A stretch of 64,000 bases of DNA from an uncultured Methanosarcinales archaeon. GTDB lineage: Archaea > Halobacteriota > Methanosarcinia > Methanotrichales > Methanotrichaceae. Within the stretch, counting starts at the first letter, position 1; each line of letters begins with the position of its first letter. Under the pieces are notes generated by a model that was not told the DNA's origin, made no database searches, and was given only the letters and a program-made list of their open reading frames with translations. Where the stretch lies: NCBI GenBank assembly GCA_963843555.1, contig CAWJKV010000012.1, forward strand, positions 32,001 through 96,000, in the 5' to 3' direction. The translations under genes and the position numbers were made by a program. This document shows positions 7,364-20,943 of the stretch, one piece after another.

Positions 7364-8083
7364 ATGGAACTGGAGTTTGGTGGCAAGAGGCGCGAGCCCG
7401 ACATTCGCCGGCTCTCCGATATGCGTGAAGTGATCTTTGATCAGAGCTGGCTGGCGGCAGCGGAGGACTTTGAGCTCTATTACATGTATCGCGACCTTTT
7501 CCTGAGCAGGGGAGACGGGGAAAAGCTGCGGGAACAGAACATTCGGTATGATATTACCATCATTCCGCCGGGTATGCTCGGTCGAGAATATATCAAAACG
7601 GCCGGCCATTACCATCCGCTCGTGCCAGGTGGCAGCGTCACCTACCCTGAGCTTTACGAGGTCCTGGAGGGGGAAGCACTTTACCTCCTGCAAAGACAGG
7701 ATCTTGGCGATGTGGTAGCAATAAATGCCTCAGCCGGGGACAAGGTTCTTGTGCCGCCAAATTATGGCCACATAACCATAAACGGCTCCAATAAAAAACT
7801 CAAAATGGCCAACTTTGTGGCCGGGAATTTCTCGTCGCTCTATGGTCCCATCAAGGAAAAAGCCGGAGGAGCTTACTTTTTCACCAAAGAAGGCTGGATA
7901 AAGAATGAACGATATCCAAAAGCAGCAGAGCTACGAAAGGTCGAGGCGCCAGACAGCAGAAGCCTGGCGCGACTAGGCCTGACTAAAGGCAGGGAGATGT
8001 ATCCGCTGCTAAGAGAAAAGGGGCATCTGGAGTTCCTGACCAGGCCCGACGAGCATCTTGAGCTCTTCGAGGGAATCGTCTGA
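7364..8083 (+). CDS. pgi: Archaeal cupin-type glucose-6-phosphate isomerase
   Basis: LYYMYRD, RYDITIIPP, KTAGHYHP, PELYEVLEG, VPPNYGHITIN. Confidence 0.9.
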   Translation: MELEFGGKRREPDIRRLSDMREVIFDQSWLAAAEDFELYYMYRDLFLSRGDGEKLREQNIRYDITIIPPGMLGREYIKTAGHYHPLVPGGSVTYPELYEVLEGEALYLLQRQDLGDVVAINASAGDKVLVPPNYGHITINGSNKKLKMANFVAGNFSSLYGPIKEKAGGAYFFTKEGWIKNERYPKAAELRKVEAPDSRSLARLGLTKGREMYPLLREKGHLEFLTRPDEHLELFEGIV

Positions 8084-8138
8084 GGACGAGAGTTGTCTCG
8101 AAAGCCGGATTAGATACCTCTTTCAGAAGCGGTTCATA

Positions 8139-9062
8139 ATGCATCTGAGCCTCTCCAGATTTAGGGCGCATATTGAGCTGCTCCGCCCCCCCCTGGCCGC
8201 AATGGACCTGGCCATGCCCGCCGCTTCGGCTCTATTGGCAGTCTATGCGGTGGAGGGCGTGCTGCCCCCCCTATTGCCGTTTCTTGCAGCCGTCGTCGGA
8301 GCTTACTGTGCCATCACCAGCTCCTATGTCTATAACGACTGCTGCGACATCGATGTGGACAGAATAGCCATGCCCAACCGGCCGCTGCCATCTGCCAAGC
8401 TTGGAAAGAAAGAGGCCCTGGCCTGGTCGCTCTTCCTTTTTCTCGTAGCTATGGCGGTGGCCCTGTACCTCAATCCGGAAAGCTTCGTGACCCTCATTGT
8501 CGCCACGCTCTTGATCACCATCTACTCCGCCTGGGCCAAGAGAAGTACGCCCTTCTCCTGGATCTTTGTGGGCCTATCCTTTGGGCTGGTGCCTCTGGGC
8601 GTCTGGCTGGCCATGGAGCCGGCAGGGTTTCTAAAAACGGGCCCGGGCCTTCATCCCGCCGCCCTGGTCCTTTCGGCAATGATATGCATAACCGATTGGG
8701 GGTTCACCAACTGCGATGCCTCGCGAGATGTGGCAGGCGACAGAGAAGAAGGAATCCCGACCACGCCCGCCACTTTCGGCATCCCAGCTACCGCCAAGAT
8801 GGTGGCAGTCTTCTGGCTGATCGGCATCCTCCTTTCTCTTGCCCTGGGGCTTCTGGCTGACCTGGGATGGCTTTACTTCTTCGCCGCAGGCGCTGCAGGA
8901 GGCTGGCAGCTCCGGCATACCCTGGACTTCGTTCACAATCCGACTGCTGAAAGAGGTGACAGACTCTTTTACCAGTCTGCCAACTACCGCGCCGTGCTCT
9001 TCGCGGCCATAATTGTCGATGTGCTGCTGCGCACAATCCTGCCCATGGCGATCGGGTTCTGA
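8139..9062 (+). CDS. UbiA-family prenyltransferase
   Basis: YVYNDCCDIDVDR..NRPLPS and DASRDVAGD aspartate motifs, multiple TM helices. Confidence 0.9.
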   Translation: MHLSLSRFRAHIELLRPPLAAMDLAMPAASALLAVYAVEGVLPPLLPFLAAVVGAYCAITSSYVYNDCCDIDVDRIAMPNRPLPSAKLGKKEALAWSLFLFLVAMAVALYLNPESFVTLIVATLLITIYSAWAKRSTPFSWIFVGLSFGLVPLGVWLAMEPAGFLKTGPGLHPAALVLSAMICITDWGFTNCDASRDVAGDREEGIPTTPATFGIPATAKMVAVFWLIGILLSLALGLLADLGWLYFFAAGAAGGWQLRHTLDFVHNPTAERGDRLFYQSANYRAVLFAAIIVDVLLRTILPMAIGF

Positions 9063-9119
9063 TCCGCAGCAAAAAGGGAAATAGTTCAGTCAAATGAATA
9101 AGGAAAATAGCGAATCGAA

Positions 9120-9593
9120 TCCTGGGTGGGCCAGAACCGATTCACAACGCCCAACTTGCTGGAGCCTATCATTGGAGTGACCGGCCTGGCCCTGCCCGGA
9201 CTCGACATTATGCCAACAGGCGGCACAGCGCTGGAATCGAAACACAGCCTCCTTTTACGGGAACCCATTCATCAAGGTGCCATATGCCTCCTTCAGCTAA
9301 TGGCTTGCTGCCCGCGCCTTTTCCGACCGTGTATTAGCGCGAGAGATCCCGACATTTTGCTGCGCCAACTAAGGCGCGCAACTTTCAGCAGCCGAGATTC
9401 TTATCCTCACAGGCTCGTAGCCGAATGCATTGCCCGAAGGGATAGCATCTCCTGGAACAAGGGATACGATCCGCCCTAGGAGCGAACCCATGCCGCCTAC
9501 CGGTTGGGGCAAGCACCTAAATCATCCTCGCCAAACAGAGCATTATCGGAATCTAGTTAAGCCCATGGCACGCCCGCCATCCGTTTGAAGACA
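9120..9593 (-). ncRNA. Candidate large structured non-coding RNA of unknown family (~470 nt)
   Basis: No credible ORF; many nested and long-range helices with G-U pairs on the minus strand; TATA at 9618-9624 and T-rich tract at about 9070-9109. Confidence 0.6.
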
Positions 9594-9617
9594 CGCGACA
9601 AATTGACTACATAATCG

Positions 9618-9625
9618 TTATATAC
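9618..9625 (-). promoter_or_regulatory. TATA box for the candidate ncRNA
   Basis: Minus-strand GTATATAA about 25 nt upstream of the first predicted helix. Confidence 0.55.
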
Positions 9626-9979
9626 ATTGTAGTTTGCAGTTGAAGGCCCGGCTGAGCGGAGAATGGATATGGAAAATGGAGAACAGGCCCTGGCAATTCC
9701 CCGTGCTCTAAGTATCCGGTCACGAGCTTCTAATCATTTGTTTGCCCACCGTCTATGTCATAATGATAGTCAAACAAAACAGGATTCGCGGATGCTTTCT
9801 ATGAATTTTTATTATTCTAAATGAAAAATATATGTTGACCCACAACCCAAACCTGGATATATACCAAAGAGAGTAAGGCCATTCCCGGGAACAGGCCGCA
9901 GTTACCACGGCTTTTTGTTCTCGATCTGATCGAATCATCTAGATTATGTGTAGGCGTTCTTTTGGTTCCGCTGACGAGA

Positions 9980-10225
9980 CTAAATTCCTGCCAGCTCATT
10001 TACTTGATTGATAGCTTCCAGCAGATTTTCGCCTTTTTGTGTGGTTTCATACAGCTTCTTTTCCCCATGCTGGACCTCTAGTAAATCATTTTTAATCAGG
10101 AGGTCCAAGTATGGTTCTACTGTTTTGAAATTGAGGTTCGCCTGATATACTACTCGGGTCTTAATGGCGCCGTTCTTGCATACATGTAGAATTTGCGATA
10201 TAATTTCTTCTCGGTTCCTCTTCAT
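9980..10225 (-). CDS. Small winged-helix (HTH_45-type) DNA-binding protein
   Basis: KRNREEIISQIL..GAIKTRVVYQANLNF..YLDLL..YETTQKG. Confidence 0.85.
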   Translation of the reverse strand: MKRNREEIISQILHVCKNGAIKTRVVYQANLNFKTVEPYLDLLIKNDLLEVQHGEKKLYETTQKGENLLEAINQVNELAGI

Positions 10226-10377
10226 ACCACCCACTCTCCTATAAGTTTCTGATCTTCAATCGGGGATTGTGATAATAATGTAACTGCGTTCTTCTGATTT
10301 AAGGATCTATGACACAGATCGAGAATTATAGCACAAAGCATGAACAGTATGCAGTCACTTTTAATTAATTGCGATAG

Positions 10378-14029: not shown

Positions 14030-14815
14030 CTATCCGAGAACGCAGATCGCCCGTGGTTCTCTGATCAGAAGCGCCAGGCTTTCTGATATGGAGAATTCCA
14101 GGTTCTCGCCCATCGGCCCGTTGTAGCCGAGGGTCATGTCCTGACCCAGCACAATGGCTGCGTATTGCCTCCCTGATGCCATGAGGACTCCCCCGCTCTC
14201 CAGAATGGGGGCTTTGAAGATGCCGTCTGTGACCAGAGCCTGAAGATACTCGAGCTCGGTACCTCCCTGGGGATAGCGGCGGAAGAGGTGGTTGTAGCGT
14301 TCAGGCGCTAAGGCCAATGTATATGGTCCGTGGAAGCCGGCCTTGTCCAGGAGGGTTATTGCAGCTATGACGTCCCCCACAGCCTTGCCCATAGCTTCCC
14401 AACTGGAGAGCTTGAGCCCCGAGGCTCCTTTGCTATTCAGAAGGCCGGATTCTCCGCTCATTCCTTCGAATATCAGGGACTCCTCCAGCCCGGCTGCCTC
14501 CTGTGCGGCCTTGGCCACAGGAGCGGTGTTGATGGGCATACCATCCTTTTCCGCAGCCGCCAGATCCCTCTTGCTCATGGAGAAGGTCTTATGGATCAAA
14601 GATAAGGGCACAAAGTTGCTTGTGATGATACCATTTTCCGCCCGGACGTCCTGTAAAGGCACTGCCTTGAGTCCAAGTCCGTAGGGGCCTTCGAGATTCA
14701 ACATCCTTCTTCCTGTGAGAACCCCTCGGGCCGCCTCGGCCATAGTGCTGTCCAAAGCCTTCCACGTTTCCGGTCCAATGGGCGCATCTTCCCGCCCTAA
14801 GTAATCATTTTCCAT
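14030..14815 (-). CDS. Family 1 encapsulin shell protein (linocin M18 type)
   Basis: YLGREDAPI..W, LTGRR..GPYGLG, GFHGPYTLAL, LGQDMTLGY, ESLAL..P.AICVL. Confidence 0.92.
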   Translation of the reverse strand: MENDYLGREDAPIGPETWKALDSTMAEAARGVLTGRRMLNLEGPYGLGLKAVPLQDVRAENGIITSNFVPLSLIHKTFSMSKRDLAAAEKDGMPINTAPVAKAAQEAAGLEESLIFEGMSGESGLLNSKGASGLKLSSWEAMGKAVGDVIAAITLLDKAGFHGPYTLALAPERYNHLFRRYPQGGTELEYLQALVTDGIFKAPILESGGVLMASGRQYAAIVLGQDMTLGYNGPMGENLEFSISESLALLIREPRAICVLG

Positions 14816-14833
14816 TGATATGTCCTCCTGCAA

Positions 14834-15223
14834 TCACTTCTTTAGCGACCCGATGGTCGTCTGGATAGGCTTCTCCTCGCCCTCAGGCTTTGTCGCCTCC
14901 ACTGTGACCTCTTGAGACGGCAGGGAGATCTCGAGAGCCATCTCATCGACCTCCTGGGCCCCTTTTGCCAGCTGCAGGTCCTCATCTCCTGTAAGAATGG
15001 AGAGCAGCCGGGCGAACTCTCCGATGTGAACTCTCTCCTCATTGGCGATATCGATGAAGACCTTCTTGGCCAGAGGATTATCTGTGGCCTCGGCATGGGC
15101 CATATAAAGGTGAACTGCTTCCTGCTCGGCGGAGAGGTCAAGGCGTATCGCTCTGATCAGCTCTTCCATGGAGAGCTTGCGATCGGGCACTTTTCCGCTG
15201 AATGGATTAACGAACTCAGGCAT
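14834..15223 (-). CDS. Ferritin-like encapsulin cargo protein with C-terminal targeting peptide
   Basis: ExEAxxxY..DIANEERVHIGEF ferroxidase motif; C-terminus TTIGSLKK matches encapsulin targeting peptides. Confidence 0.9.
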   Translation of the reverse strand: MPEFVNPFSGKVPDRKLSMEELIRAIRLDLSAEQEAVHLYMAHAEATDNPLAKKVFIDIANEERVHIGEFARLLSILTGDEDLQLAKGAQEVDEMALEISLPSQEVTVEATKPEGEEKPIQTTIGSLKK

Positions 15224-20569: not shown

Positions 20570-20943
20570 AATAGAAAATCGCATTCTTAATATTAAATGC
20601 TTTACTCGCAGGAACCAGAATGCTGCAATTGCCTGTCTATGACGATTATAGAAGAAAGTTCTTCTTGCATTTTGGATGAGGTATTCTCTGTGTGGCTTTG
20701 CCTGGATTTCGCGAAATCTTGGGCCTGGGTATGATGTGCGATTATATATTCGGCCATTAGCCCTTCCGAAGATGCGTTATAGGCTCGCCTGCATATCGAT
20801 TCTCAGATTGATTTCTCTTTGTAAATATGCCCTGGCCAAAAAGCTTATATCTCGGCAATTGCCGTATGTAGTACATGGCAAAGGTCGAATCTCATTTCTT
20901 TCCCATCAAGATGACTTTTGCCTCCCTCCTATTCATGATTGAC

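What the first reader, a model, noticed from the sequence alone, without database searches (positions are those of the whole stretch)
9120..9593. Free-standing ~470-nt multi-domain structured RNA of unknown family
Seen in sequence: a ~500-bp gap with no credible ORF, a minus-strand TATA (9618-9624) and a T-rich end (about 9070-9109). Read on the minus strand, almost all of it can pair. Helices found by eye: a 5' domain (GUCUUC-AAACGGA with UCUGUUU..GAGGAU); a long-range helix CCAAC..AGGCGGCAUGG (9507-9488) with CUGUGCCGCCUGUUGG (9228-9213); hairpins GUUCGCUC/GGGCGGAU, AUGC..C(UUCG)G..GCAU, AUCUCGGC/GUCGGGAU enclosing GCGCC/GGCGC, and CUCGCGCU/GGCGCGGG; a possible 8-bp pseudoknot GUGCCAUG (9571-9564) with UAUGGCAC (9284-9277); and a long 3' hairpin 9192-9128. 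Frequent G-U pairs favour the minus strand. It lacks the RNase P (GAGGAAAGUCC), SRP helix-8, tRNA and group I/II intron cores. Inference: an undescribed large archaeal ncRNA, possibly a ribozyme or RNP scaffold, transcribed on its own.
Basis: partly seen in the sequence, partly recalled or inferred. Interest (0 to 1): 0.85.

Follow-up and report, generated by a model that had tools for sequence, protein, structure and literature searches.

The report
New large multi-copy archaeal structured RNA
This gap between two genes holds one copy of an undescribed, roughly 490-letter folded RNA gene that acetate-eating methane producers (Methanothrix relatives) carry in up to a dozen copies, sometimes on their viruses, and whose job is not yet known.

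Summary
The feature is real and larger than one locus. Window 9603-9114 (minus strand) is one member of an undescribed family of large structured non-coding RNAs, with no Rfam match. A covariance model of its 3' domain hits 85 of 105 genomes of the host family (Methanotrichaceae, inferred), 1-12 matches each, 8 in this genome. It hits none of the other-family genomes searched. Copies share an upstream archaeal promoter, a long-range stem closing a variable 5' domain (three subtypes, ~340-530 nt), and two tandem four-way junctions, one with a conserved 7-nt T-loop. Whole-structure covariation beats a tree-aware null; no single pair is significant. Only 2 of the 10 first-reader helices tested are conserved. 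Half the copies lie just upstream of a second unknown small RNA with anti-Shine-Dalgarno-like motifs. Many neighbour DUF1699 or MC1 genes, and two sit beside integrases in tailed-virus contigs. Copies are gained and lost as DNA, with their promoter. Transcription was not shown. Most likely a trans-acting, tRNA-arm-bearing regulatory or scaffold RNA; the function is inferred only.

The parts
9114..9603 (-). Large structured RNA, subtype 1 (~490 nt); ends inferred from conservation and promoter spacing
   Evidence: Alignments; CM match 9111-9293, 103.5 bits; 62-73% identity to four other copies in this genome, best 81% elsewhere
9624..9643 (-). Conserved promoter: BRE-like (9640-9632) and TATA-equivalent (9631-9624); this copy is somewhat diverged
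   Evidence: Consensus over 128 copies; the window copy scored 6, under the cut-off of 12; BRE/TATA naming is from recall
9604..9626 (-). Imperfect inverted repeat between TATA and start; candidate operator
   Evidence: Family consensus is an 8-bp palindrome with a 7-nt spacer; in this genome 5 of 7 near-matches are upstream of RNA copies; role inferred
9309..9603 (-). 5' domain closed by long-range stem P1 (9600-9588 with about 9321-9309), with P2 (9569-9564/9331-9326), P3, P4, P5, P6, P7 (9411-9406/9343-9338), P8/P8a (9382-9356)
   Evidence: Pairs kept in 81-99% of cells across 89 other copies for these helices (P1 as a whole 90%); same-branch double changes 37 against null 15.2 +/- 3.8
9465..9520 (-). 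Optional variable hairpins, deleted in some copies
   Evidence: Absent in L009, L012, L035 and in L240, L243, L244
9218..9292 (-). Four-way junction 1: closing stem S1 and three hairpins
9230..9248 (-). T-arm-like hairpin: stem, bulged U, G-C pair and T-loop-type loop (8 nt here, 7 nt in most copies)
   Evidence: 138 of 156 parsed loops are 7 nt; A at position 5 in 136 of 138, U at 7 in 135 of 138; T-loop definition recalled
9114..9206 (-). Four-way junction 2 (a structural repeat of junction 1) on a long closing stem that pairs with the 3' end
9070..9113 (-). U-rich tail, probable terminator
   Evidence: T enrichment downstream across 165 loci
9093..9978 (.). Segment absent at the same site in the closest relative G099 (RNA, promoter and about 330 unique bases); no target-site duplication seen
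8058..9062 (+). Convergent neighbour: UbiA prenyltransferase gene (not part of the element)
   Evidence: Pfam PF01040
9980..10234 (-). Upstream neighbour: HTH_45 winged-helix gene (kept in G099 without the RNA)
   Evidence: Pfam PF14947
20828..20937 (+). Unlinked copy of the companion small RNA gene (promoter plus ~65-nt hairpin with CCCUCCU tail); this window's large RNA has no adjacent copy

Best explanation
The element is a stand-alone non-coding RNA gene of a new Methanotrichaceae family. SHOWN by comparison: conserved own promoter, conserved multi-junction fold, non-coding evolution, many copies per genome, gain and loss at the DNA level, frequent pairing with a small anti-SD-like RNA and with DUF1699, MC1 and another small-protein gene. 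INFERRED: it is transcribed under a dedicated repressor (palindrome between TATA and start) and folds into a compact protein-bound or self-associated particle. Its constant 3' domain (two four-way junctions, one with a T-loop arm) docks on tRNA-handling machinery such as the ribosome, a tRNA or a processing nuclease; the exchangeable 5' domain tunes specificity. With the anti-SD-like small RNA and the MC1 chromatin gene it would form a dosage-amplified cassette that dampens or reshapes translation when growth stalls. It spreads by local duplication and by riding on proviruses and integrative elements. About 0.9 that it is a real structured RNA gene, about 0.4 for this trans-acting role.
For: Promoter kept across 128 copies and all three subtypes. 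3' structure: 89% of cells paired, 31 of 62 pairs with two-sided change, 0 of 500 shuffles as high. Tree-aware double changes: 37 vs 15.2 (type 1, 5'), 38 vs 24.6 (type 2, 5'), 49 vs 29.6 (3'). T-loop census. 192 of 249 distinct loci are full length. Small RNA within 300 nt downstream in 83 of 158 loci. Of 167 loci, DUF1699 lies within 2 kb in 42, a small unnamed protein in 29 and MC1 in 20, against under 1 expected at this genome's density (loci are not independent). MC1 is linked to stress and stasis recovery in Methanosarcina (PMC13729102, abstract).
Against: No transcript shown. No single base pair is significant against the tree null (best E 1.2). The structure was drawn from these same sequences. 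T-loop positions 2 and 4 vary, so it is not a strict tRNA elbow, and ARAGORN and Rfam see no tRNA. The RNA was not found in 20 of 105 family genomes, including two complete ones, and the closest relative lacks this copy. No pairing between the small and large RNA above shuffles. DUF1699 is far more widespread (148 of 151 genomes) and is not next to any copy in this genome. The link to translation or stasis rests on neighbours only.
Confidence: 0.4

Rival explanations
1. An archaeal analogue of ROOL/GOLLD: a provirus or integrative-element RNA, possibly forming an RNA-only oligomer, that serves the mobile element; chromosomal copies are relics or domesticated cargo.
For: Two tailed-virus contigs (terminase, portal, head proteins) carry a full copy beside a tyrosine integrase gene. 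Integrase within 2 kb in 5 and ParA in 3 of 167 loci. Patchy presence, decayed copies with scattered breakpoints. ROOL and GOLLD are described as often in prophages (PMC5737381, PMC12286853, passages).
Against: Only 2 viral contigs were found in four pattern scans of 2.9 million, and they may include host flank. No match in the phage or plasmid collections. Most copies, this one included, sit among housekeeping genes. No Rfam similarity to ROOL or GOLLD.
Confidence: 0.27
2. A ribozyme, for example an ORF-less group II-like or self-cleaving RNA, mobilised or processed in trans.
For: Size and complexity; tight four-way junctions; many copies end in a stem finishing ...CUYGAU with an A near position -7, which recalls group II domain VI (resemblance recalled).
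Against: 0 of 173 start with GUGYG; a C usually faces that A (101 parsed cases), so it is not a bulge. No Rfam group I, group II or small-ribozyme hit. No copy interrupts a gene or carries an ORF (promoter to 3' domain 200-400 nt in 64 of 64 metagenome loci). The upstream promoter travels with the copies, which argues against RNA-mediated movement.
Confidence: 0.12
3. A non-autonomous DNA element (MITE-like or IS200/IS605-derived) whose hairpins act as DNA.
For: Sharp 5' boundary at a palindromic sequence; dispersed copies; presence/absence at one site and opposite orientations at the UbiA site.
Against: No terminal inverted repeats or target duplication seen; the right boundary varies; no transposase is a recurring neighbour; helices are kept through G-U pairs on one strand; breakpoints are scattered.
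Confidence: 0.1
4. A cis-regulatory leader or trailer, or a small protein gene.
For: DUF1699 is often directly upstream on the same strand; a 117-aa plus-strand ORF overlaps the window copy.
Against: Downstream genes vary in identity and strand; own promoter and U-rich tail; 1019 of 1259 indels break frame.
Confidence: 0.04

Closest known systems
ROOL and GOLLD RNAs (bacterial large ornate RNAs)
   Same: Large, multi-junction, free-standing, function unknown, found in and outside prophages (PMC5737381 and PMC12286853, passages); here two copies in tailed-virus contigs.
   Different: No Rfam match; archaeal; up to 12 matches per genome; no conserved pseudoknot found; tandem four-way-junction repeat; paired small RNA; oligomerisation untested.
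OLE RNA
   Same: Large chromosomal structured RNA that may be a protein scaffold (role recalled; dimer in PMC12286853 passages).
   Different: No Rfam match; no obligate partner gene found; multi-copy.
tRNA-mimicking domains (tmRNA, bacterial Y RNA YrlA, mascRNA; recalled)
   Same: Four-way junction with a T-arm-like stem and 7-nt T-loop next to the closing stem.
   Different: Not detected as tRNA, tmRNA or YrlA; extra bulged U in the arm; junction duplicated; no free acceptor end evident.
ORF-less group II introns / HYER ribozymes (recalled)
   Same: Similar size; 3' end stem finishing in AU.
   Different: No GUGYG start, no bulged branch A, no domain V match, own promoter, intergenic.
Archaeal RNase P and SRP RNAs
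   Same: Large free-standing archaeal RNAs.
   Different: Both are encoded elsewhere in this genome; signature motifs absent in 173 of 173 copies.

Membership tests
Any Rfam 15 family (includes ROOL, GOLLD, OLE, HEARO, group I/II, RNase P, SRP as I recall) | Covariance-model match at gathering score | tested here: not met
   Window 0 hits; region E<=10 only two chance hits outside the RNA; 20 and 9 homologous loci give only tRNAs and weak noise
ROOL/GOLLD-like | Location in prophages or near tRNA genes | tested here: inconclusive
   2 viral contigs; tRNA genes in 4 of 35 loci; most copies elsewhere
ROOL/GOLLD-like | Multiple pseudoknots | tested here: inconclusive
ROOL/GOLLD-like | RNA-only oligomer or cage | not testable with these tools
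   Needs cryo-EM or mass photometry
Group II intron | 5' GUGYG | tested here: not met
   0 of 173
Group II intron | Domain V/VI with bulged branch A | tested here: not met
   No Rfam match; C opposite the A in 101 parsed cases
Group II intron | Interrupts a transcript; RT ORF in some members | tested here: not met
   No long version in 64 of 64 metagenome loci with a promoter; intergenic
RNase P RNA | P4 core motif and single housekeeping copy | tested here: not met
   0 of 173; true gene at G000:C14
SRP RNA | Helix 8 motif | tested here: not met
   0 of 173; true gene at G000:C3
tRNA / tRNA-like domain | T-arm with 7-nt T-loop | tested here: met
   138 of 156 parsed loops 7 nt, A5 136 of 138; arm has an extra bulged U; window loop is 8 nt
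tRNA / tRNA-like domain | Full cloverleaf recognised by tRNA finders | tested here: not met
Non-autonomous transposon (MITE, IS200/IS605 derivative) | Defined ends, terminal repeats or target duplication, cognate transposase | tested here: not met
   Variable right end; no duplication at the one empty site examined; scattered breakpoints
Type I toxin-antitoxin RNA pair | Antisense complementarity between small and large RNA; conserved small ORF | tested here: not met
   Duplex z +1.35 and +0.39 over 40 of 80 pairs; frame-breaking indels

The most novel reading that the evidence does not exclude
A new class of archaeal RNA machine: a large RNA built from a duplicated four-way-junction, T-loop module, amplified to several subtypes per genome and coupled to a universal anti-Shine-Dalgarno-like small RNA, that controls translation or dormancy (or self-assembles as a cage or is catalytic) in the main acetate-using methanogens and is exchanged through their viruses.
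Probability: 0.35. Interest if true: 0.92.

Novelty: new variant of a known kind. Interest (0 to 1): 0.74.

Why it matters
Large ornate RNAs of unknown function are rare and, as far as I recall and could find, described from bacteria and their phages. This family gives an archaeal case, in organisms central to methane formation from acetate (recalled), with well over a hundred distinct sequences, three subtypes, a testable secondary structure and natural deletion variants. The short (~340 nt) subtype suits structure work. The companion small RNA is a second undescribed family, found in 74 of 74 genomes of the family searched.

Tried and rejected
Single-sequence folding is weak evidence (z -1.74) and its MFE fold disagrees with the comparative model. 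Single-pair covariation against a tree null gave no significant pair (79 sequences, mean identity 79%, effective number 33; four divergent rows dropped). Expression: the run search used a paralog (L063), not the window copy; the four runs laid were contigs only, probably with DNA, and depth was flat across RNA and flanks in three of four, so no conclusion. Plasmid and phage collections: no match. Attachment-site idea (RNA as integrase target): rejected because fragment ends are scattered. Small/large RNA antisense pair: rejected. DUF1699 as obligate partner: rejected; no solved relative or functional lead for it. An alternative local 5' hairpin is possible in 97% of cells but shows no compensatory change. 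A large RNA upstream of small-RNA copies in genomes without a match: not found in 21 loci, except a reduced element in G057. In one search the anchor for one 3' helix (H1) was mis-registered, and three anchors (P1b, S2b, H1p) were; those rows were not used as support. Earlier scan notes held nothing. The COMPASS preprint (10.64898/2026.10.21.760802, passages only) does not mention methanogens; its database and supplements could not be seen and may hold this family as an unnamed cluster. Supplements of PMC5737381 were not read.

Full report
Observation. The gap lies between a UbiA gene (8058-9062, +) and an HTH_45 gene (9980-10234, -). Rfam gives nothing for the window or the region and ARAGORN finds no tRNA. 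Folded alone, the minus strand is only mildly more stable than shuffles (z -1.74; plus strand -1.23), so the case rests on comparison.

Family and range. BLASTN found 8 matches in the own genome and matches in 22 of 24 same-genus genomes, 0 of 16 from other families. A 189-position covariance model of the 3' domain matched 85 of 105 genomes of the family (12 of 16 genera; 1-12 matches each, fragments included), 0 of 76 genomes of other families in the class and 0 of 146 other-family genomes in a phylum sample (the samples overlap). A motif scan of all species genomes gave 89 stretches; of the 80 listed, 67 are titled Methanothrix, Methanosaeta or Methanotrichaceae, 11 uncultured Methanosarcinales, 1 uncultured archaeon and 1 a small contig in a Patescibacteria bin. 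The family name is inferred from these titles. A metagenome scan gave 118 stretches, all of which matched the family profile. The own genome has six apparently complete copies, the window's among them, and several decayed ones. RNase P and SRP RNAs are elsewhere.

Anatomy. Copies share a ~45-bp upstream block with BRE-like and TATA-like parts and an inverted repeat between TATA and the first helix (consensus over 128 copies; the window copy is diverged and fell under the score cut-off). Conservation then runs from about 9603 to 9114 and is followed by a T-rich tail. The 5' domain is closed by a long-range stem (P1) and comes in three subtypes, total length about 340-530 nt, with different sequences but apparently the same plan. 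The 3' domain is common to all: two tandem four-way junctions with similar sequence at the junctions. In the first, one arm resembles a tRNA T-arm with an extra bulged U: of 171 distinct 3' domains 156 could be parsed, 138 have a 7-nt loop, with a pyrimidine first in 132, A fifth in 136 and U seventh in 135. Positions 2 and 4 vary, so this is a general T-loop rather than a strict tRNA elbow (definition recalled).

Structure support. For the 3' model on 70 sequences, 89% of cells pair, 31 of 62 pairs change on both sides and 0 of 500 shuffles reach this; slid controls pair at 35-46%. That control ignores kinship, so I counted same-branch double changes on trees against shuffled partners: type 1 5' domain 37 vs 15.2 +/- 3.8 (60 pairs; 89 of 96 copies plus the window; 0 of 5000), type 2 5' domain 38 vs 24.6 +/- 3.6 (55 pairs; 27 of 28 copies; 1 of 5000), 3' domain 49 vs 29.6 +/- 5.1 (51 pairs; 117 copies; 1 of 5000). 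Against this: no single pair passed a tree-based null, the model was drawn from these sequences, and several type 2 helices pair in only 53-62% of cells in the plain alignment. Only 240 of 1259 indels keep frame. The window copy keeps the consensus helices with five single mismatches among those checked, whereas 8 of the 10 first-reader helices tested are not conserved in that register.

Context and movement. Flanking genes vary. In 83 of 158 loci a second small RNA gene follows within 300 nt: own promoter, a 10-bp stem, and CCCUCCU in loop and tail, which resembles the anti-Shine-Dalgarno sequence (recalled). Its model matches 74 of 74 family genomes, 2-16 times each, with weak hits in 11 of 76 others. 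It does not pair with the large RNA. Of 167 loci, 42 have DUF1699 within 2 kb, 29 a small unnamed protein gene, 20 MC1, 5 an integrase and 3 ParA (related genomes are not independent). Two tailed-virus contigs carry a full copy beside a tyrosine integrase gene. At the UbiA site, 29 other genomes were examined (of 55 with a match): 5 hold the large RNA within 1.5 kb (4 reversed and behind DUF1699, 1 as in the window and with the small RNA), 4 hold only the small RNA, 1 the small RNA plus a fragment, and the closest relative G099 lacks about 9093-9978 with no target duplication. 192 of 249 distinct loci are full length and truncation points are scattered. Because the promoter accompanies the copies, they most likely move as DNA, by duplication, deletion and carriage on mobile elements (inference).

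Expression. Not shown. The one run search and read-laying, on a paralog, returned contigs only and flat depth.

How it most likely works. I put about 0.9 on a real, separately transcribed structured RNA and 0.4 on a trans-acting particle whose constant T-loop junction domain engages tRNA-handling machinery, as part of an amplified small-gene cassette for non-growing cells. The stasis link comes only from neighbours, including MC1 (PMC13729102, abstract). Rivals: provirus cargo like ROOL/GOLLD (0.27), ribozyme (0.12), non-autonomous DNA element (0.10), cis element or small ORF (0.04).

Comparison with known systems. In size, complexity and partial viral carriage it recalls ROOL and GOLLD (PMC5737381, PMC12286853; passages), but it is a member of neither, nor of group II introns, RNase P, SRP or tRNA (membership table). 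Nine literature searches (listings only unless cited) found no description; subscription papers and supplements were not covered. Verdict: a new family within the known kind 'large structured RNA of unknown function', with a 0.35 chance of being a new class of machine. Interest 0.74.

Noticed in passing
window 20828-20937 (+); also G000 C4, C5, C6, C10, C14, C16: Undescribed ~65-nt hairpin small RNA with its own promoter and CCCUCCU motifs; in 74 of 74 family genomes searched, 2-16 matches each; no Rfam match.
   Followed up: partly
L426, L431, L435, L438 (G057), about 150-200 nt upstream of the small RNA: A short multi-copy element, ending (in three of the four) in the last hairpin of the large RNA, stands in the large RNA's place; possibly a minimal version.
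   Followed up: partly
L013, L019, L032, L038-L044, 170-330 nt downstream of the large RNA: A further conserved non-coding stretch; read on the opposite strand it has a tail like the small RNA's, so it may be a third RNA.
   Followed up: no
G313 (L422, L423) and G314 (L424, L425): Two tailed-virus contigs with terminase, portal and head genes; G313 has ParA, G314 an anti-restriction gene, DUF1699 and the small RNA; the terminase appears as two ORFs in both.
   Followed up: partly
L048, L071, L126, L266 and others: Recurrent cassette of MC1, a ~76-aa unnamed protein, DUF1699, the large RNA and the small RNA, sometimes in tandem repeats. DUF1699 has 2-21 matches per genome across the class.
   Followed up: partly
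window 9646-9978: About 330 bases with no other match in the genome or in the loci held at that point, lost together with the RNA in G099.
   Followed up: partly
window 14030-15223 (-): Two adjacent ORFs that look like an encapsulin shell and a ferritin-like cargo (recognised by eye, not tested).
   Followed up: no
L006 (G000:C2 about 182,200-182,400): Array of 15-bp tandem repeats near a fragment of the RNA.
   Followed up: no
L063 position 2220: Contigs from public runs break here and depth rises in three of four runs; the transposase-like gene upstream of this copy seems to be a multi-copy, strain-variable insertion.
   Followed up: no
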